A DNA stretch of 64,000 bases from an uncultured Planctomycetota bacterium (GTDB lineage Bacteria > Planctomycetota > Planctomycetia > Isosphaerales > Isosphaeraceae). Both the position numbers and the translations under genes were made by a program. The notes under the pieces were generated by a model that did no database searches, had not been told where the DNA came from, and saw only the letters and a list, made by a program, of their open reading frames with translations. Positions 54,955-64,000 of this stretch are shown here, piece after piece; the stretch's first letter is position 1; each line of letters opens with the position of its first letter. The DNA is taken from positions 6,720,001-6,784,000 of the forward strand of contig CAVTTN010000002.1 of the NCBI GenBank assembly GCA_963737655.1, read 5' to 3'.

Positions 54955-56463
54955 ATGCCGAACAAGTATTCGATCGGGAGCGTCAACCTGGTCAGCTCCA
55001 CCGACCCCTCGGCCCTCGCCCCGGGGCCGAGCCGCCTCGCCCGGGGCCCCGTTCCGCCTCCTGGTCGTCGGCGACTTCCGCGGCCATCGCGGGGCCGACT
55101 CCCCTCCGCTCGCCTCCCGGAAGCCGGTGAAGGTCGATCGCGACAACTTCGACGACGTCCTGGCCAGGCTCGCCCCGAGCCTCCAGTGGACCGGACGCGA
55201 CGCCGAATCCTCGATCTCGCTTCGGTTTACGGAAATCGACGACTTCCACCCCGACCGCGTCCTCGAACGCTCGGGGACGTTCGACGCCCTCAAGAAACTC
55301 CGCCGAGACCTGGACGACCCCTCGAAGATCGACGACGTGGCCGACCGCCTGGGCATGAGGGTCGCCCCGCCCCCCTCGGCCTCCTCGCCGCCTCCCGGCA
55401 CCGACCCCGCGCCGATCGACCTGCTCGACCAGATCCTCCTCCAGACGCCCACCGTGCCGACCGGCCCGGGGCTGCTCGGCCCGTGGGAGGCGTTCCTCGA
55501 CACCCTCACCACCGGCCATCGCGTCGCCGGCGCCGACCCCCGCCGCGCCGACCTCGACCGCGCCCTCCAATCGGCCGAGGCCGACCTCCTCCGCGCCCTC
55601 CTCCACCATCCCGAATTCCAGTCCCTGGAAGGACTTTGGCGAGGTCTCCGCTTCCTCACCCGCCGCCTCGACACCGACGGCTCGCTCTCCATCTGGGCCC
55701 TCGACGCCTCGAAATCCGAGATCGCCGCCGACCTCTCCGCCGGCGCCCCGGCCCTGAAGAAACTGCTGATCGAGCCGACCGTCGGCACCCCCGGGGGACA
55801 GCCCTGGGCCGTGATCTCGGCCGCTTTCGAATTCGGACCCGTCCCGACCGATCTGGCTACCCTGGAAGGGCTTGCGGTCGTCGGACGGGTCTGCGGCGCC
55901 CCCGTCCTGGCCGGCGCGTCCCCCGAGTTCCTCGGCGTCGAATCGCTGGCCGAGACCCCCGACCCCGACGACTGGCCGGGCCTGGCGGATTCCGACCTCG
56001 AAGCCGCCTGGTCGGCCCTCCGCCGAGGCCCGAACGCCGCGTTCCTGGGCCTGGCGATCCCCCGATTCCTCCTCCGCCAGCCCTATGGCAGCGACGGGGA
56101 ATCCATCGACACCTTCCCATTCGAAGAAATCGGCCCGGGGCAGGGGAATTCGGCCTTCCTGTGGGGCAATCCGGCCATCGCCCTCGGCGAAATGCTCGGC
56201 CGGGCCTTCTCCATCGGCGGCTGGAACCTCCGGCTCGGCACCACCAACGAGATCGACGGCCTCCCCGCCCACATCGACCGCCGGGGCGAGGAATCGCTCA
56301 TGACCCCCTGCGCCGAGGCGCCCTGGGCCTCCGGGCCGGCGAGGCGATCCTCGACCGCGGCCTGATGCCCCTGCTCTCCATCGCCGGACGCCCCGCGATC
56401 CGCCTCTCCCGGTTCCAGTCCGTGGCCGACCCGGTCCGCCCCCTGGCCGGTCGGTGGGGCTGA
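54955..56463 (+). CDS. Type VI secretion sheath-like protein, TssB-like plus TssC-like regions in one gene (two frameshifts)
   Basis: PFRLLVVGDFRG...VDRDNFDDVLARLAPSL...LRFTEIDDFHPD (TssB-like), then LLHHPEFQSLEGLWRGLRFL...PRFLLRQPYG...FLWGNPA...GLMPLLS (TssC-like); shifts near 55040 and 56320. Confidence 0.8.
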   Translation: MPNKYSIGSVNLVSSTDPSALAPGPSRLARGPVPPPGRRRLPRPSRGRLPSARLPEAGEGRSRQLRRRPGQARPEPPVDRTRRRILDLASVYGNRRLPPRPRPRTLGDVRRPQETPPRPGRPLEDRRRGRPPGHEGRPAPLGLLAASRHRPRADRPARPDPPPDAHRADRPGAARPVGGVPRHPHHRPSRRRRRPPPRRPRPRPPIGRGRPPPRPPPPSRIPVPGRTLARSPLPHPPPRHRRLALHLGPRRLEIRDRRRPLRRRPGPEETADRADRRHPRGTALGRDLGRFRIRTRPDRSGYPGRACGRRTGLRRPRPGRRVPRVPRRRIAGRDPRPRRLAGPGGFRPRSRLVGPPPRPERRVPGPGDPPIPPPPALWQRRGIHRHLPIRRNRPGAGEFGLPVGQSGHRPRRNARPGLLHRRLEPPARHHQRDRRPPRPHRPPGRGIAHDPLRRGALGLRAGEAILDRGLMPLLSIAGRPAIRLSRFQSVADPVRPLAGRWG

Positions 56464-57125: not shown

Positions 57126-58082
57126 TCAGGGGGTGTCCAGGGGGCTGCGGACCCCGAGCGGGCCGGACTGAAGAACGTGGGTATAAATCATGGTAGTGCG
57201 AACATCTTCATGCCCCAGGAGTTCCTGGACCGTCCGGATGTCGCGCCCTTCTTCCAGGAGGTGGGTGGCGAAGCTATGGCGGAGCGTGTGGGGGCTGGCC
57301 GGCTTGACCAGGCCCGCGCGGAGGGCGGCCCGTCGCACCGCCCTCTGCAGCGCCTGCTCTCCCACGTGGTGACGGCGGACCGCCCCCGATCGCGGATCGA
57401 CCGACTTCGTCCCCGCGGGGAAGACGTACTGCCAGCCGAGCGAGCGATCCGCCTCGGGATACTTCCTCGCCAGGGCGAACGGCAGGTGGACCCGCCCGAA
57501 CCCCTGGCGGAGGTCCTGCGAATGGAGGTCCTTCACCCGGGCGACCTGGCGCCGAAGCGCCTCGACCAGCGCGACCGGGAGCACCGTCACGCGGTCCTTC
57601 TGCCCTTTGCCGTCGCGAACGACCAGGTGCTTCTGCCCGAAATCCACGTCCTTGACGCGCAAGCGGACGCATTCCATCAGCCGGAGTCCGGACCCGTAAA
57701 GCAGCCCGGCCATCAGCCCGAACGTCCCGTCGAGCTGCGCCAGAAGAGCGCGAACCTCCTGGCGAGTCAGGACCACCGGCAGCCGCTCGGGCCTCCGGGC
57801 CCTGGGCAGGTCGCCAAACTCCTCCAGAGGACGCTTCACGACCTCCCGGTAGAGGAACAACAGGGCGCTGAGTGCCTGGTTCTGGGTCGAGGCCGCCACA
57901 TTCCGATCCACCGCCAGATGGGTCAGGAAGGCCCCAACCTCCACCTCGCCCATTTCCTCGGGATGCCGCTTCTCGTGAAACAAGATGAACTGCTTCGCCC
58001 AGCGGACATAAGCATCCTCAGTGCGAAGGCTATAATGCAACGTCCGGGCAGCCTCCCGGACCCGGTCCAGCAGCATCGACAT
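57126..58082 (-). CDS. intI: Integron integrase
   Basis: [44 protein letters not shown], IntI-specific insert ([12 protein letters not shown]...WQYVFP...RRHH), [26 protein letters not shown]. Confidence 0.98.
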
Positions 58083-58179
58083 GGTCGTGTCGTCCCGATC
58101 AACGAATCAAGGAAGAGAAAATCCAAAGAAAATCCTTGCAAGGCGAACTCCCCGCCGGCAAAATCAACAACCGGCCCGA

Positions 58180-58231
58180 GATTATACGTCCGAAACGACG
58201 TGATAAACCACATCATTTCGGACGTATAATC
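58180..58231. promoter_or_regulatory. 16-bp perfect inverted repeat carrying outward-facing TATAAT boxes between intI and attI
   Basis: GATTATACGTCCGAAA (58180-58195), 20-nt spacer, TTTCGGACGTATAATC (58216-58231). Confidence 0.65.
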
Positions 58232-58239
58232 CCGCAAAT

Positions 58240-58282
58240 TCGGGGATTCTGCGTCACTTTCGATGTCTACTTCATGTTAGGC
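58240..58282 (+). other. Putative attI site
   Basis: First GTTAGGC core (58276-58282) upstream of intI, at the AT-rich to GC-rich transition, not preceded by an attC hairpin. Left boundary approximate. Confidence 0.75.
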
Positions 58283-58513
58283 GGCTCAGGAGTCGAAGCC
58301 TTCGGTCGTGCTCGTCGTCGGCCTCGCCGGTCGCGCCTCGGCTCGACGACGCCATCGGTCGGGCCCCTGGAGTCGGCCTCGGCGGTGGTGCGCGTCGTCG
58401 CCCTCGCCGGCCGCGCCCCCGAGGTCGGGCCCGTCGGCCGGCGCCCCCTTGCCAACGCCGTCGGTCCGTGCCAGGATCGTCGGTGTCGGCGCGTGGGGCG
58501 TCGCCGGGGCGCC

Positions 58514-58613
58514 GCCTAACCCGGCGCTGCAGCGGACCCGGCCCGCGGTCGACGATCACTCTCCTCTCAATCTCGCCGGGCGCGGGCCGGTCCGCTGAGC
58601 TTTGTCGTTAGGC
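58514..58613 (+). other. attC site 1 (intact)
   Basis: GCCTAAC...CTGCAGCGGACC...GGTCCGCTGAG...GTTAGGC. Confidence 0.93.
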
Positions 58614-58978
58614 GGCTGACTCACGGGTCATTCGCAAGGTCTGATGGCAGCGTGCGACGTCGCCGGGGGCCCGGTCGGTCCCGTGCTTCGAGCGTCGTCG
58701 CCGCCGTGTCATCGCGCATCGCCGGTGGCCTCGGTCCTCACCGCGGTGGTGTCGTTGCCGTGGGGGCTCGCGTGCGTTCGTTGCCGCGGGGGTCTTGCGT
58801 CGTGCTCACGCGCCGCCTCCCCGTGAACTCTTCGCGCCGGCGGTTCGGCATCGGTTGATACTATGTGGGCATGATCATCGATCGGCCCGCATCCCCCCCG
58901 GCCCCCGCGACGACGGGGACGGCCCGATCCGGCTCGGCGGGGCTTGCGGTCGGGCGCCCCGCCTCCGACCCGTCGCCC

Positions 58979-60331
58979 TCACGACGGCGGCGACGGCGGC
59001 GACTTCGCCACCAGCTCGTAGCCCAGCGACCTCGCCTTGCGCCGCAGCGACCGCTCCTGCTTCGCGCGCACCTCGGCCTCGTACTCCGCCAGCGACCTCG
59101 ACACGTACTCCTCGCCGTGCCTGAGCATCCGGTACACCAGCCGCGACAGCTTGTGCGCCGTCGCCGTGATCGCCCCCCGGCCGCCGATCCGGCCCTTGAT
59201 CCGCCGGTAGAACTGGCCCGTCGCCGTCGCCGTCCGGCCCGCCGCCTGCGCCGCCATCCGCAGCGCCTGACCCACCCGGTTCTTGCCCTTGCGGGGCGTG
59301 CGACGCCGCTCGGTCTTGTTGCTCCGGTCGGTCCGCGGGCAGAGGCCCAGCCAGCTGGCGAAGTGCTTCTCGCTCGGGAACCGCCCCACGTCGCCGCCGA
59401 GCTCGGCCAGGATCACCGTCGCCGTCGTCGCGTCGATCCCCTCGATGGCCGTCAGGTCCACGCCGATCGCCCGGGCCAGCTTGGCCGGGGCGTCGAACCG
59501 CACGTCGTTGGCCTTGCGGCCGCGCTTGCGGGGCCTCGCCGCGATCGGCCGGCCTTCGGAGCGGTCGGGCAGGCGGTCCAGCTCCTCGGCGATCCGGGCG
59601 TCGCACTCGTCGACCTGGCGGTGGAGGTAGTGGTACAGGTCGGACGCCTGCCTCAGGGCGAACAGGTGCTCGGGCCGCCAGGTGCCCTCCAGGGCCCGGG
59701 CGATCTCCGCCTCGTCCCGGGCGCACCGCTCGTGCCGCAGCGCGGCCAGCTTCGTGGCGTCCCGCTCGCCGGCGAGGATCGCGGCGATGATCGCCGTGCC
59801 GGTGACGCCCGTGATGCTGCTGACGACCTCGGTCAGCTTCACATTCATCTGCTCCAAAGCCTTCTGCATGTGCTGGACGTGGTGCGAGGCGTACCGCACG
59901 AGCATCTGCCGCTGCCGCCAGTAGCCGCGCAGGGCCAGGACGGCCCCGGGCGGGCGGAAGGACGGGCGGAGCAGGCCGCACGAGTGGAGGCGCTGGAGCC
60001 ACTGGCAGTCGAGCCGGTCGGTCTTGGGCCGGGCGCCGCAGTGGCTGGCCTGGCTCGGCTCGATGAGGAAGACCTCGAAGCCGCGCGATTCGAGCAGCTC
60101 GAACAGGGGGATCCAGTAGACGCCGGTGGACTCCAGGACCACCGAGGTGACGCCCTCGGCCCGGAACCAATCGGCCAGGGCGTGGAGGTCGGCCGAGCAG
60201 GCGCCGAAGGTGCGGACCCGTCCGGGCCCGACGCAGGCGACGTGGTTGTCGGAGTGGACGTCGACGGCGGCGGCGTGGGGGTGGACGACCGGCAGGGACG
60301 CGTCGGGATCGGGGGGCGTGCGGCGACTCAT
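58979..60331 (-). CDS. IS110-family DEDD transposase/recombinase
   Basis: AAVDVH, VLESTGVYW, KTDRLD catalytic residues; C-terminal FPSEKHFASWLGLCP...S and AITATAHKLSRLVYRML. Confidence 0.96.
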   Translation of the reverse strand: MSRRTPPDPDASLPVVHPHAAAVDVHSDNHVACVGPGRVRTFGACSADLHALADWFRAEGVTSVVLESTGVYWIPLFELLESRGFEVFLIEPSQASHCGARPKTDRLDCQWLQRLHSCGLLRPSFRPPGAVLALRGYWRQRQMLVRYASHHVQHMQKALEQMNVKLTEVVSSITGVTGTAIIAAILAGERDATKLAALRHERCARDEAEIARALEGTWRPEHLFALRQASDLYHYLHRQVDECDARIAEELDRLPDRSEGRPIAARPRKRGRKANDVRFDAPAKLARAIGVDLTAIEGIDATTATVILAELGGDVGRFPSEKHFASWLGLCPRTDRSNKTERRRTPRKGKNRVGQALRMAAQAAGRTATATGQFYRRIKGRIGGRGAITATAHKLSRLVYRMLRHGEEYVSRSLAEYEAEVRAKQERSLRRKARSLGYELVAKSPPSPPS

Positions 60332-60359
60332 GGCGAGGGCTCCGGCGGGTGGGGGGCCA

Positions 60360-60580
60360 AGCCGTCGCGGGCCGAGAGGGGGTCCGGGGACGAGGTAGTC
60401 TCCCCGACGGGAACGTCGCGGGGCCGTGTTGACACGGCGCCGCGGGTCACCAATGATGGGGCCACGGCCTCTCGGGCCAAGCTAACCTGCGGGCGGCGAG
60501 CACCAGGGAGATGACGGCCGGGAGGCCCGCGGCGGCGACGCCGATCGTACCGCGCCCCGGTTCACGTCCGTCGGGGAGCG
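60360..60580 (-). ncRNA. Putative bridge/seek RNA of the IS110 element (boundaries and strand inferred)
   Basis: Non-coding, hairpin-rich, conserved in blocks with the 380-bp mini-elements; contains CTAACCT (target match) and CTCCCCG (element-end match). Confidence 0.65.
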
Positions 60581-60601
60581 GTCGCAGGCCGCGCGGAGAG
60601 T

Positions 60602-60698
60602 TAACCTTGCGCTGCAGCGGACCCGGCCACGGGCCGCGCCTTGTGTCCTTTCCGGCTCGTCGGTCCGTGGACCGGTCCGCTGAGCTTTGGCGTTAGGC
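60602..60698 (+). other. attC site 2 (left box interrupted by IS110)
   Basis: TAAC...CTGCAGCGGACC...GGTCCGCTGAG...GTTAGGC. Confidence 0.92.
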
Positions 60699-60907
60699 GG
60701 CTGACTCACGGGTCATTCGCGAGGCCCGTTCGCAGCGAAGCAAGCGACGTCGCCGGCGGCTCGGTCGGTCCCGTGCTTCGAGCGTCGTCACCGCCGTGTC
60801 GTCGAACATCGCCGCGGGCATCGGTCCTCACCGCCGCGGGTTCGTTGCCGTGGGGTCTCGCGTGCGTTCGTTGCCGTCGGGGTCTTGCGTCGTGCCTTCG
60901 CGCCGCC

Positions 60908-61287
60908 TCTTCGTGAACTCTTTGGCTGGGAACGGCCATCGACGCGCGACACTACCCCAACCCCAGGCTTTGTGGCCGGGCAGCGGCGAGGTCCGGGTAG
61001 CAAACCGACGGATTCAAGAGCGGCGGACGAGGCGCGGGCCGAGAGGGGAGTCGGTTACGTTTGCAGTCTCTTCGACGGGAACATCCCCGCGAGTCGGCTC
61101 GCGGGGCGTCGCCAATGACCGGATCACGACCTCTCGGGCCAGGCTAACCTACGGGCAGGGAGCACCAAGGTGGAGACGGCCGGGAGGCCCGCGCCACACT
61201 CAGGCTACGCCGCGCCGGGTCGGCGGGCAAGTCGTCCCCGACCCCCGTTCACGCCCCGTCGGGAGCGGACGAAGGCCGCAGGATGGT
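60908..61287 (-). mobile_element. 380-bp non-autonomous IS110-related mini-element, copy 1 (in attC 3)
   Basis: Between GCC 60905-60907 and TAAC 61288-61291; ends and right ~250 bp homologous to the IS110 ends and non-coding region; no transposase. Confidence 0.9.
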
Positions 61288-61384
61288 TAACCTTGCGCTG
61301 CAGCGGACCCGGCCACGGGCCGCGTTCTTTGTTCTTTCACGCTCACAGGTCCGTGGACCGGTCCGCTGAGCTTTGGCGTTAGGC
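61288..61384 (+). other. attC site 3 (interrupted)
   Basis: TAAC...CTGCAGCGGACC...GGTCCGCTGAG...GTTAGGC. Confidence 0.92.
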
Positions 61385-61408
61385 GTCTTCGCAGCGGAGG
61401 GGCACGCG

Positions 61409-61855
61409 GTGGGGATCACTCCGGCGACGCGGAAGCCGGTCCACCTCCTGACGGCTGCCGATCTCGCGGCGTTCCCGGTCTGGGAGTACGCCGACGATGA
61501 GGAGTCCGTCGAGGGTCGGGATGAGACCTGGATCCGCCCTGTCCCCGTCGAAGTCATGCCTTCCCGGAGCTATGCCATCGTCGCGGCGGACTTCGAGGCT
61601 GCTTGCGGTCGTCGCTTCCAGGGGTATGTCTTCGTCTCCACGTTGGAGGGCGCCCCCGACGCATGCCAGGGCGTCATCTGGTCAGGTTCGTCGGGCCTCT
61701 TCGTCGCTAACCCGGAGGCTGTCGTCTACAAGGGATCGCGGGCTGAGTTGCTCGCAGGGCTGGGCGTCGGCGAGCATGAGTTGTTCCCCCTGTCCTTCCG
61801 TCCGCGCGTTCCGGTCGAGGGTATGCAAGGGCTCTGGTCAGGCGTGTTACCCTAA
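61409..61855 (+). CDS. Cassette-encoded hypothetical protein
   Basis: GGAGG RBS, GTG start, RKPVHLLTAADLAAFPVWEYADDEE...DETWIRPV; stop abuts attC 4. Confidence 0.8.
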   Translation: MGITPATRKPVHLLTAADLAAFPVWEYADDEESVEGRDETWIRPVPVEVMPSRSYAIVAADFEAACGRRFQGYVFVSTLEGAPDACQGVIWSGSSGLFVANPEAVVYKGSRAELLAGLGVGEHELFPLSFRPRVPVEGMQGLWSGVLP

Positions 61856-61856
61856 C

Positions 61857-61958
61857 GCCTAACCCGGCGCTGCAGCGGACCCCGGCCACGGGCCGCGCTT
61901 TCTCTTCTGTTGTAGCTCAGTGGTCCGTGGCCGGGTCCGCTGAGCTTGGTCGTTAGGC
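61857..61958 (+). other. attC site 4 (intact)
   Basis: GCCTAAC...GTTAGGC with the same inner boxes. Confidence 0.93.
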
Positions 61959-61977
61959 GTCAGGGGGCGATCTCGCC

Positions 61978-62421
61978 GTGAGCGTCAAAGTCCTCGCGCT
62001 CGACCTTGAGCGAACGCTGATCGATGACGCCCTGAGCGCCCGCCCACGGCCCGGCCTCCGCGATTTCCTCGCCTTCTGCGACGAGAGCTTCACGCGGGTC
62101 GCCATCTACACCACGGTCGAGGAGACCGACGCCCGCGAAGTCATTGATGAACTGGCCCGTGAGGGCCACGTCACTCAGGCCCTGCTAGCGCGGCTGGAGT
62201 ACATCGATTGGTCGGGCGAGCACAAGGATCTTGCGTATGTGCCCGGCGTCGCCGCGGAAGAGGTGGTGCTCGTCGATGACGACGCCGGTTGGATCCGGCC
62301 GGATCAGCGAGGGAGCTGGGTCGCCATCAAGCCCTGGGACGGCGGGCCGGACGGCGAGTTGCCCCGCATCAGGTCAATACTCCAGGCCCTGGTCGCCGGT
62401 GTGGCCGCGCCGGATGCCTAA
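61978..62421 (+). CDS. Cassette-encoded HAD-superfamily (NIF/FCP1-like) protein
   Basis: VLALDLERTLI...RPGLRDFL...AIYT...KDL...VVLVDD; the second Asp of DxD is Glu; stop lies in the attC TAA. Confidence 0.75.
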   Translation: MSVKVLALDLERTLIDDALSARPRPGLRDFLAFCDESFTRVAIYTTVEETDAREVIDELAREGHVTQALLARLEYIDWSGEHKDLAYVPGVAAEEVVLVDDDAGWIRPDQRGSWVAIKPWDGGPDGELPRIRSILQALVAGVAAPDA

Positions 62422-62515
62422 CCTCGCGCTGCAGCGGACCCGGCCCGCCGCGGCGTTTTCTGGTATCATCAAGCCTTCACTTGGCGGTCCGGTCCGCTGA
62501 GCTTTGGCGTTAGGC
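62416..62515 (+). other. attC site 5 (intact)
   Basis: GCCTAAC...GTTAGGC with the same inner boxes. Confidence 0.93.
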
Positions 62516-62557
62516 GGCTCGACCTCAACCGTGGACGACGTGCACGATGACCCCTCG

Positions 62558-62977
62558 ATGGAGATACGCTCCTGCCACGGCAGGCGTGGCCTCCGCTTCC
62601 ACAGCCGGCGCGGAGACTACTTCCACGCGAGCGTCGAGGGTGACGGCCCGAGTGCCTCCGTGCGGGTCTGGGGCTACACCGATTGCCACCTCCTCGTCGA
62701 CCTCTTCGAGTCGATCGCCCACGACTGGCGCGGCTGGCAAGGCGAGCGTTCCTGGTCCTCCATCGAGGATGAGTTCCGCATCGGTGCCACCACCGACAAG
62801 GCGGGCCATGTCACCCTCTCGGTTGTGCTTGCTCACTGTGACGGGATGGACGACTGGCGGCTCTCGGTGCCGGTCTTCACCGAGGCCGGACAGCTCGAAA
62901 AGATCGCCCGAGAGGTCGCTCGCTTCTTCTCCGGCGATGCGAGCGGCCCCCCGCCCGCAGATGCCGCCTCTTCGTGA
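62558..62977 (+). CDS. Cassette-encoded hypothetical protein (DUF6228-like; start may be GTG 62531)
   Basis: LFESIAHDWRGWQGERSWSSIEDEF...GHVTLSV...EAGQLEKIAREVARFF; last two codons and stop come from the mini-element. Confidence 0.75.
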   Translation: MEIRSCHGRRGLRFHSRRGDYFHASVEGDGPSASVRVWGYTDCHLLVDLFESIAHDWRGWQGERSWSSIEDEFRIGATTDKAGHVTLSVVLAHCDGMDDWRLSVPVFTEAGQLEKIAREVARFFSGDASGPPPADAASS

Positions 62978-63348
62978 ACTCTTTGGCTGGGAACGGCCAT
63001 CGACGCGCGACACTACCCCAACCCCAGGCTTTGTGGCCGGGCAGCGGCGAGGTCCGGGTAGCAAACCGACGGATTCAAGAGCGGCGGACGAGGCGCGGGC
63101 CGAGAGGGGAGTCGGTTACGTTTGCAGTCTCTTCGACGGGAACATCCCCGCGAGTCGGCTCGCGGGGCGTCGCCAATGACCGGATCACGACCTCTCGGGC
63201 CAGGCTAACCTACGGGCAGGGAGCACCAAGGTGGAGACGGCCGGGAGGCCCGCGCCACACTCAGGCTACGCCGCGCCGGGTCGGCGGGCAAGTCGTCCCC
63301 GACCCCCGTTCACGCCCCGTCGGGAGCGGACGAAGGCCGCAGGATGGT
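62969..63348 (-). mobile_element. 380-bp non-autonomous IS110-related mini-element, copy 2 (in attC 6)
   Basis: Identical by eye to 60908-61287; between GCC 62966-62968 and TAAC 63349-63352. Confidence 0.9.
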
Positions 63349-63447
63349 TAACCTCGCGCTGCAGCGGACCCCGGCCACGGGCCGCGCCTTCTGCGTCTTC
63401 GTAACTCGCTGGTCCGTGGCCGGGTCCGCTGAGCTTGGTCGTTAGGC
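63349..63447 (+). other. attC site 6 (interrupted)
   Basis: TAAC...CTGCAGCGGACC...GGTCCGCTGAG...GTTAGGC. Confidence 0.92.
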
Positions 63448-63464
63448 GGCGGGAGGCTCCCGCG

Positions 63465-63785
63465 ATGGAATGGCCCGAACCGTGGTGCGATGTCGCCGAT
63501 CTCGGCCCCGACTTCGCGGCTACGTTCGAGCGCGTCCTGGTGCGCGAGGTCGCGAGGGGCCATCCGCTCCACGGCATCACGGTCGCAGCGGTCGGCAAGC
63601 GCGACGGCACCGACGACGTGCTATTTCGGCTGCTCGACGGCTCCGGGCGTGTTGCTGCCGTGCATCTGACCTGGACGCGCTCACCTCCCGAACGGCCACC
63701 CTGGCCGGCAACCGAACTATTCGCCAATTTCGAGGCGTTTGCCCGGCATCAGATGCAACCCGACCACGAGGAATACGTGACGTAG
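63465..63785 (+). CDS. Cassette-encoded hypothetical protein
   Basis: GGAGG RBS; MEWPEPW...EVARGHPLHG...DDVLFRL...AAVHLTW...PWPATELF. Confidence 0.8.
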   Translation: MEWPEPWCDVADLGPDFAATFERVLVREVARGHPLHGITVAAVGKRDGTDDVLFRLLDGSGRVAAVHLTWTRSPPERPPWPATELFANFEAFARHQMQPDHEEYVT

Positions 63786-63806
63786 CGGCGGGCACAGAAC
63801 GCCGCC

Positions 63807-64000
63807 TCTTCGTGAACTCTTTGGCTGGGAACGGCCATCGACGCGCGACACTACCCCAACCCCAGGCTTTGTGGCCGGGCAGCGGCGAGGTCCGGGTAGC
63901 AAACCGACGGATTCAAGAGCGGCGGACGAGGCGCGGGCCGAGAGGGGAGTCGGTTACGCTTGCAGTCTCTTCGACGGGAACATCCCCGCGAGTCGGCTCG
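63807..64000 (-). mobile_element. Mini-element copy 3 (runs off the right edge; presumably in attC 7)
   Basis: Starts after GCCGCC (63801-63806); matches copies 1 and 2 except T>C at 63959. Confidence 0.88.

What the first reader, a model, noticed from the sequence alone, without database searches (positions are those of the whole stretch)
58511..63806. attC occupancy tracks a 12-nt target, GCCGCCTAACCT, half of which is present in the putative guide RNA
Seen: the three fully visible occupied sites reconstruct to GCCGCC|TAACCT (attC 2, 3, 6), and the fourth has the GCCGCC left half. All three empty sites mismatch it: GCCGCCTAACCC (attC 1), AACGCCTAACCC (attC 4), GATGCCTAACCT (attC 5). Both element types carry CTAACCT internally at the homologous position (60482-60488; 61144-61150). 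Inference: CTAACCT is one target guide, and site choice is sequence-programmed and extends into cassette DNA left of attC rather than depending on the attC hairpin. The second guide is unresolved (GACGGC, shared by both elements, is a one-mismatch candidate). n is only 7.
Basis: partly seen in the sequence, partly recalled or inferred. Interest (0 to 1): 0.75.

Follow-up and report, generated by a model that had tools for sequence, protein, structure and literature searches.

The report
RNA-guided jumping elements in integron sites
A bacterial jumping gene uses a small guide RNA to land in the joints of a gene-cassette array, and a miniature copy that lacks the enzyme but keeps its own guide RNA appears to borrow the enzyme and has outnumbered it.

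Summary
The window holds an integron whose attC sites carry an IS110 bridge-recombinase element (1784 bp) and a 380-bp transposase-less element. The local observation is exact, and TAACCT does follow copy 3. Genome-wide the 12-mer is only a consensus: all 36 insertions are at C|TAACCT, but only 18 of 35 scored have the exact 12-mer, and GATGCC|TAACCT is occupied elsewhere. AGGTTAG (CTAACCT read on the RNA strand) is a real target guide: across 32 different guides in relatives it matches the insertion flank at 157 of 160 positions (shuffled mean 48). GACGGC is a stem, not a guide; the second guide is the opposite loop strand and pairs loosely. The 'cassette DNA' GCC is part of the attC stem, and attC context matters (34 of 48 CC|TAACCT attC sites occupied, 0 of 14 elsewhere). 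The less ordinary part: the mini element (28 copies against 8) keeps a complete bridge RNA whose donor guide changed together with its own end, so it probably redirects the helper's recombinase to itself. Known mechanism, new variant; no expression or movement shown.

The parts
57126..58082 (-). integron integrase IntI
   Evidence: TIGR02249 475 bits, cut-off 265; only full copy in the genome
58276..58282 (+). GTTRRRY crossover of the presumed attI, start of cassette 1
   Evidence: sequence; similar regions precede other arrays; attI status inferred
58511..58613 (+). attC 1, empty, GCCGCC|TAACCC; mismatch at the distal end of the strict guide
58812..58817 (+). left half of target in attC 2 (GCCGCC), part of the extended R'' stem
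58818..60601 (-). autonomous IS110-family element, 1784 bp; one T shared between the ends and the target
   Evidence: ends mapped on 8 copies
58979..60331 (-). 450-aa DEDD bridge recombinase (D24, E67, D105, D108, S337)
   Evidence: PF01548 + PF02371; NF033542 253 bits; aligns to IS621 8wt6; residue numbers
60345..60538 (-). predicted bridge RNA of the IS (ends approximate)
   Evidence: consensus fold and compensatory pairs in 24 sequences
60482..60488 (-). strict target guide AGGTTAG (3' strand of the target-binding loop)
   Evidence: covariation 157 of 160 positions over 32 guides
60505..60514 (-). loose target guide, 5' strand of the target-binding loop (IS)
   Evidence: loop geometry; weak covariation, z up to 4.3
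60401..60406 (-). donor guide CGGGGA of the IS, same as its own right end (58818-58823)
60544..60549 (-). -10-like hexamer upstream of the IS RNA
   Evidence: 83 TAnnnT hits at 28-30 nt upstream of the stem in 112 related sequences; position; function untested
60429..60457 (+). sigma-70-like promoter match, antisense to the RNA and facing the downstream cassettes; IS only
   Evidence: 1 found, 0.1 expected; consensus match only
60602..60698 (+). attC 2 body, intact from TAAC to R'
60908..61287 (-). 380-bp transposase-less element, copy 1 of 3 in the window, 28 in the genome
   Evidence: no tblastn match to the recombinase inside it
61144..61150 (-). strict target guide AGGTTAG of the mini element
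   Evidence: same in all 28 minis
61167..61176 (-). loose target guide of the mini element
61069..61074 (-). donor guide CGAAGA of the mini, same as its own right end (60908-60913) and different from the IS at two positions
   Evidence: 28 of 28 minis; G080 and L001 minis
61288..61384 (+). attC 3 body (occupied)
61854..61958 (+). attC 4, empty, AACGCC|TAACCC
62413..62515 (+). attC 5, empty, GATGCC|TAACCT; a usable target class (same 12 nt occupied at C2:1678865)
62969..63348 (-). mini element copy 2 in attC 6 (body 63349-63447)
63807..64000 (-). mini element copy 3; runs to 64186 and is followed by TAACCT

Best explanation
An IS110-family bridge recombinase and its RNA insert two kinds of element into the first bases of integron attC sites. 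The RNA is read from the minus strand. Its target loop has a strict 7-nt guide (AGGTTAG, pairing CTAACCT on the plus strand) and a loose 10-nt guide on the other side that favours CCxCC left of the joint. Recombination centres on a CT (target) / TT (donor) core; the element ends up opposite to the cassettes, between the cassette gene and an otherwise intact attC. Sequence sets the address and the attC hairpin (or selection against other insertions) narrows it. The 380-bp element has no enzyme but keeps a whole bridge RNA whose donor guide matches its own end; it most likely loads its RNA on the IS recombinase and so moves itself. Shown: anatomy, junctions, guide-flank and guide-end covariation, conserved RNA fold. 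Inferred: transcription, protein binding, circles, movement in trans, role of the hairpin.
For: Recombinase family and catalytic residues; 6 of 8 IS copies have an intact 450-aa frame. 36 of 36 insertions at C|TAACCT. 32 distinct guides match their own flank at 157 of 160 positions, shuffled mean 47.7, maximum 74 in 10,000; 64 of 82 unique guide-flank pairs match 5 of 5. GGGTTA-guide relatives L139 and L180 sit in TAACCC attC sites, the class left empty here. 47 of 62 R' ends carry 10 of the 12 target bases inside the same hairpin, none has the AG the guide needs, none is occupied. Two-loop RNA fold: 96.5% of cells paired, 9 of 18 pairs with two-sided changes, 0 of 500 shuffles. Donor guide equals own end: CGAAGA in 28 of 28 minis, CGGGGA in 7 of 8 IS (the 8th is truncated), TGAAGA in the L001 mini. 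CC|TAACCT: 34 of 48 attC occupied, 0 of 14 elsewhere, p=1.4e-6.
Against: No RNA or read evidence. The 5' guide pairs poorly in both elements and its register is unsettled (two diagonals, z 3 to 4.3); the 5' donor guide of the IS hardly matches its donor. Some AGGTTA-guide relatives sit at TAACCA sites (L088, L098) or outside attC (L203, L102, L109, L119, L191), so neither the sixth base nor the hairpin is an absolute need in the family. Empty TAACCC sites are 13 copies of only 4 cassettes. Some occupied sites are copies of an already occupied cassette. The helper RNA could pair the mini's end through two G-T wobbles, so the mini RNA is not logically required.
Confidence: 0.78

Rival explanations
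1. Pure 12-nt sequence programming, independent of attC structure.
For: 12-mer enriched at occupied sites: 18 of 35 against 2 of 47, p=8e-7; 16 of 33 against 2 of 37 after grouping cassettes. Relatives with the same guide insert outside attC.
Against: 17 of 35 occupied sites lack it; the left hexamer alone does not discriminate (18 of 35 against 18 of 47, p=0.27); 38 C|TAACCT sites outside attC, one a perfect 12-mer (C2:4536561), are all empty; the left GCC belongs to the attC stem (110 of 138 matches to the cassette start, shuffled 100 +/- 2.3).
Confidence: 0.12
2. The mini is an ordinary ends-only MITE moved by the helper's enzyme and the helper's RNA; its own RNA is a relic or a regulatory decoy, as proposed for Ssr9.
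For: Helper donor guide can reach the mini end by two wobbles (inference); MITEPpu9/ssr9 precedent, where Ssr9 is discussed as a regulator; ends-only 88-bp derivatives of another IS110 exist in this genome.
Against: Guide and end changed together at two positions and again at a third in L001; both target guides and all helices are kept in a homologue 83% identical (G080); a second mini lineage carries different target guides, and L141 and L224 match their own flanks fully, L117 with one mismatch.
Confidence: 0.25
3. Occupancy mostly reflects history: elements travel inside cassettes moved by IntI, old attC sites predate them, and insertions outside arrays are purged; the apparent hairpin need is selection.
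For: Same occupied cassette in two arrays (C2:1673484 and 6787034); 8 C|TAACCT attC sites with 2 or more changes in the L'' box are all empty; occupied attC still folds its main stem.
Against: 70 cassette groups remain after grouping and 33 are occupied, so most insertions are independent; one cassette occurs both occupied and empty.
Confidence: 0.3

Closest known systems
IS621 / IS110-group bridge recombinases (PMC11208160, PMC11208158)
   Same: DEDD + Tnp recombinase, non-coding end upstream of the gene, RNA with a target loop and a donor loop, CT core on the strand the 3' guide pairs with, no real target duplication.
   Different: 450 aa against about 326 aa; relative to the gene the core reads AG and the top-strand guide comes first, the order Siddiquee et al. 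report for IS1111 members rather than ISEc21; target and donor cores differ (CT, TT); 5' guides pair loosely.
IS1111-attC group: ISPa21, ISPst6, ISKpn4, ISPa25 (PMC11187229; PMC3001079; Tetu and Holmes 2008 and Post and Hall 2009 not read)
   Same: [quoted passage not shown]
   Different: Those have the RNA downstream of a 330-350 aa transposase and 7-17 bp subterminal repeats; here the RNA is upstream, the enzyme is 450 aa and the only repeat is a 6-7 bp GTGAAC motif 35 nt inside the left end. Likely an independent arrival at attC (inferred; no tree with those proteins was made).
ISPpu9 with MITEPpu9/ssr9 (PMC12288879)
   Same: IS110-group element recombining at AG, with a transposase-less partner that carries an RNA resembling the IS leader, forms its own circles and lies alone or in tandem behind the IS; L001 shows the same tandem.
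   Different: In the sections read, Ssr9 is treated as a hitchhiker or regulator, not as a bridge RNA with its own donor guide; targets are REPs; MITE and IS are near equal in number (8 and 7), against 28 and 8 here.
ISPpu10 sequence-plus-hairpin targeting (bioRxiv 10.64898/2026.03.19.712850)
   Same: Strict right guide, permissive left guide, and a target hairpin that raises efficiency.
   Different: There a short local stem-loop in a REP; here the target is the base of a 100-nt attC stem, and the gate is inferred from genome counts only.
Group IIC-attC introns (PMC3001079)
   Same: Insert on the bottom strand between cassette gene and attC and can carry outward promoters.
   Different: Retroelements with a reverse transcriptase; no relation in mechanism.

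Membership tests
IS110 family bridge recombinase | N-terminal DEDD (PF01548) and C-terminal PF02371 domain with catalytic serine | tested here: met
IS110 family bridge recombinase | Non-coding RNA with target and donor loops | tested here: met
   predicted from conserved fold and compensatory pairs; not in Rfam
IS110 family bridge recombinase | Guides covary with target and donor | tested here: met
   3' target guide strong; 3' donor guide 72 of 72 in relatives, end candidates pre-filtered to six 5-mers; 5' guides weak
IS110 family bridge recombinase | Scarless insertion at a short core | tested here: met
   joined flanks restore attC; occupied and empty forms of one cassette
IS110 family bridge recombinase | RNA expressed and bound by the enzyme; circular intermediate | not testable with these tools
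   no sequencing run was listed
IS110 group (against IS1111 group) | Long left end holding the RNA, no long subterminal repeats | tested here: met
   270-288 bp upstream with the RNA, about 160 bp downstream
IS110 group (against IS1111 group) | Bottom-strand guide 5' of top-strand guide relative to the gene, as in ISEc21 | tested here: not met
   order is reversed here
IS1111-attC group | Insertion near the 5' end of attC, antisense | tested here: met
   36 of 36
IS1111-attC group | RNA downstream of a 330-350 aa transposase; 7-17 bp subterminal repeats at both ends | tested here: not met
   RNA upstream, 450 aa, 6-7 bp motif 35 nt inside the left end
IS1111-attC group | Monophyly with ISPa21/ISPst6/ISKpn4 transposases | not tested
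   no named member was retrieved; best plasmid matches are unnamed IS110 proteins below 50% identity
Non-autonomous IS110 derivative (MITEPpu9 type) | Helper-like ends, no transposase, many copies at the helper's target | tested here: met
Non-autonomous IS110 derivative (MITEPpu9 type) | Movement depends on the helper enzyme in trans | not testable with these tools
   inferred; in G080 the search found only a fragment of a close helper, genome 77% complete

The most novel reading that the evidence does not exclude
The 380-bp element is a guide-RNA satellite: a mobile element whose only product is a bridge RNA that captures another element's recombinase and points it at the satellite's own ends. 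The pairing is one-sided (helper guide can wobble-pair the satellite end, satellite guide cannot pair the helper end), which would let it outcompete its helper, as in 28 copies against 8. Such satellites arose at least twice in this IS110 clade and retarget on their own, and this one hides at the edge of attC so that IntI carries it along with cassettes.
Probability: 0.55. Interest if true: 0.7.

Novelty: new variant of a known kind. Interest (0 to 1): 0.52.

Why it matters
The guide itself is known biology. What would matter: (1) a natural two-part system in which enzyme and guide RNA sit on different mobile elements, with the donor guide visibly reprogrammed by evolution, gives a direct test of how RNA-guided recombinases are parasitised; (2) one genome supplies 36 insertions and about 85 unused near-matches, a natural specificity scan showing a strict and a loose guide plus a probable attC gate; (3) a second, apparently independent IS110 route to attC shows that cassette arrays are repeatedly colonised in a way that leaves attC usable; (4) a 450-aa recombinase clade with at least 32 natural target guides is raw material for genome-editing tools.

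Tried and rejected
Exact 12-mer as requirement: rejected. GACGGC as second guide: rejected, it is a stem. A second guide 3' of AGGTTAG, as in IS621 gene orientation: not found; the variable strand lies 5'. Extension of the strict guide to a 7th base beyond TAACCT: match 0.23, chance level. Handshake base after the guide against the donor: fits in the window's IS and mini but only 22 of 44 relatives, no shuffle control, inconclusive. Hairpin energy does not separate occupied from empty attC (p=0.14). Single-sequence folds were not better than shuffles (z -1.55 and -0.42). Rfam: one sub-threshold chance hit. A separate autonomous parent with the mini's ends: none in G000; the other IS110 (34% identity) has different ends and guides. 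Sequencing runs: none was listed, so no reads were laid. Earlier findings of the scan: nothing returned. Tetu and Holmes 2008 is not held. L223 was a false short element (it has a transposase) and was left out.
Full report
Setting. The window is G000:C2:6720001-6784000. An integron integrase lies at 57126-58082 (minus; TIGR02249), followed by a cassette array whose attC sites are about 97 bp. Two elements interrupt attC sites: a 1784-bp element at 58818-60601 with a 450-aa IS110-family recombinase (D24, E67, D105, D108, S337) and a 380-bp element without a recombinase gene at 60908-61287, 62969-63348 and 63807-64186. The genome holds 36 such elements in several arrays: 28 minis and 8 IS, 6 with an intact frame. 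Mini and IS are 69-76% alike over the RNA region.

Check of the observation. The seven local sites are as described, and TAACCT follows copy 3. For the genome I built a profile from 57 seed attC sites; of 101 hits, 83 passed (E at most 1e-3, start of the profile matched) and one lone end remnant was dropped, leaving 82 sites, 35 occupied. Exact 12-mer: 18 of 35 occupied, 2 of 47 empty. C|TAACCT: 35 of 35 and 18 of 47; the 36th element also has it, in a truncated attC. Left hexamer alone: 18 of 35 and 18 of 47 (p=0.27). After grouping by cassette (70 groups, 33 occupied) and keeping only C|TAACCT groups, C at -5 is enriched (23 of 33 against 4 of 16, p=0.005), C at -2 weakly (p=0.03), G at -6 and -3 not at all; CCxCC gives 20 of 33 against 2 of 16. 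Eight empty sites have decayed L'' boxes; without them CCxCC is 22 of 35 against 2 of 10, p=0.03. All 13 TAACCC sites are empty, but 10 are one cassette. So the right half is strict, the left half is a preference, and occupancy is not saturated: one cassette occurs both occupied and empty.

The guide is real. The RNA runs on the minus strand, upstream of the gene. A shared motif was found 156 times in these 200 loci; 116 had a left end that could be anchored without using the guide. Of 82 unique guide-flank pairs 64 match at all 5 variable positions and 10 at 4; taking the first flank listed for each of 32 distinct guides gives 157 of 160 matches, against a shuffled mean of 47.7 and a maximum of 74. 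Kin are not independent, but the guides differ widely. Relatives L139 and L180, with GGGTTA, occupy TAACCC attC sites; L080, L088 and L098 tolerate a mismatch at that distal base. Inside G000, 47 of 62 R' ends carry ten of the twelve target bases in the same hairpin; none has the two bases the guide needs and none is occupied.

RNA structure and second guide. An alignment of 24 sequences (22 relatives picked by protein similarity and by the inner hairpin, plus IS and mini; 28 distinct candidates were listed and 6 near-duplicates or distant ones were left out) gave an internal loop with about 10 nt on each side. Four named helices are paired in 96.5% of cells with two-sided changes at 9 of 18 pairs, above all 500 shuffles and all slid controls. 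GACGGC overlaps the closing stem, constant whatever the target. The other loop strand (60505-60514; 61167-61176) covaries with the other flank, weakly and on two neighbouring registers (60 pairs, 42 guides, best z 4.3 among 80 cells). In the mini it reads CCACCT against the target's CCGCCT, which fits the CCxCC preference (inference). Read with a CT core as for IS621 (passages of PMC11208160 and PMC11208158), AGGTTAG is the right guide and the loose strand the left guide; all left joints keep the target's CT and the right joints the donor's TT. The same asymmetry, strict right and permissive left, is reported for ISPpu10 (abstract and passages).

Does the hairpin matter? The GCC left of R'' mirrors the start of the same cassette (110 of 138 matches in 46 cassettes, shuffled 100 +/- 2.3), so it is attC stem, not free cassette DNA. 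Outside attC, 38 C|TAACCT sites are all empty, one of them a perfect 12-mer; for CC|TAACCT the contrast is 34 of 48 against 0 of 14. A hairpin gate as in ISPpu10 or selection against insertions elsewhere could each explain this; some same-guide relatives do insert outside attC. The insertion leaves TAAC, L'', L' and R' in place and the main stem still folds, and one occupied cassette occurs in two arrays, so elements probably also travel with cassettes (inference).

The mini element. Its donor guide CGAAGA equals its own end in 28 of 28 copies; the IS has CGGGGA in both places (7 of 8). A homologue 83% identical in a genome of the same genus keeps guide and end and also sits in attC (G080; the DNA search matched 17 of 121 family genomes, full length only in G000 and G080). 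In L001 a 391-bp mini lies directly behind an IS and has TGAAGA in both places. A second lineage of about 478 bp (L117, L141, L159, L224) has four different target guides; L141 and L224 match their own flank, L117 with one mismatch, L159 could not be scored. Paired change of guide and end argues that the mini's RNA works in cis. By base-pairing rules the helper guide can reach the mini end through two G-T wobbles whereas the mini guide meets two A-C mismatches on the helper end; this one-sidedness may explain 28 against 8 (inference).

Literature. IS1111-attC elements are known and seekRNA-guided (PMC11187229, passages and sections 9 and 12; PMC3001079, passages); the two original papers were seen only as references. 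MITEPpu9/ssr9 is the nearest precedent for the mini (PMC12288879: abstract, passages, sections 4, 13 and first part of 18); those sections do not call Ssr9 a bridge RNA. Searches listed no paper on an upstream-RNA IS110 at attC or on a transposase-less element with its own donor guide; passages of two 2026 texts and PMC12444791 had none either. ISfinder, subscription journals and all supplements were not seen and may list such elements.

Verdict. The mechanism is that of known bridge recombinases. The variant, an IS110-layout element at attC with a guide-carrying satellite that outnumbers it, is moderately interesting and directly testable.

Noticed in passing
G000:C2:4847051-4848544 (+); fragment at C2:287107-287601: A second IS110 (34% identical enzyme) with the same RNA scaffold, 3' guide GTGTTA-G and a near-perfect 5' guide, sits in an attI-like GTTAG crossover on the top strand, so two lineages attack opposite ends of the integron sites.
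   Followed up: partly
G000:C2:4298419-4298506, 1121384-1121471 and about 689466-689553 (-): Ends-only derivatives of about 88 bp of that second IS110, without a bridge RNA, two of them at GTTAG sites: a contrasting non-autonomous strategy in the same genome.
   Followed up: partly
window 58277-58510: Cassette 1 (about 240 bp, no convincing gene) occurs in 10 near-identical copies across four arrays, sometimes in tandem, always with the unused TAACCC site; it may escape insertion for that reason.
   Followed up: partly
window 58130-58280: The attI/promoter-like region recurs at five other places (85-95% identical) though only one full intI exists, suggesting dispersed arrays served in trans.
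   Followed up: no
window 60429-60457 (+): TTGACA-17-AATGAT promoter match inside the IS donor-loop hairpin, antisense to the RNA and facing downstream cassettes; not found in the mini; recalls Asr9 of ISPpu9.
   Followed up: no
L136, L138, L162, L173, L181, L182, L190, L196, L205: Relatives with the GGGTTA guide mostly sit in another short repeated palindrome-like sequence rather than attC.
   Followed up: no
L102, L189, L194, L011: Tandem junctions: elements inserted next to the right end of another element, and in L102 several repeats of the 11-nt right end.
   Followed up: no
window 54955-56463: A gene upstream of intI appears frameshifted (split between two frames); its protein looks like a type VI secretion sheath subunit (recalled resemblance, not searched).
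   Followed up: no
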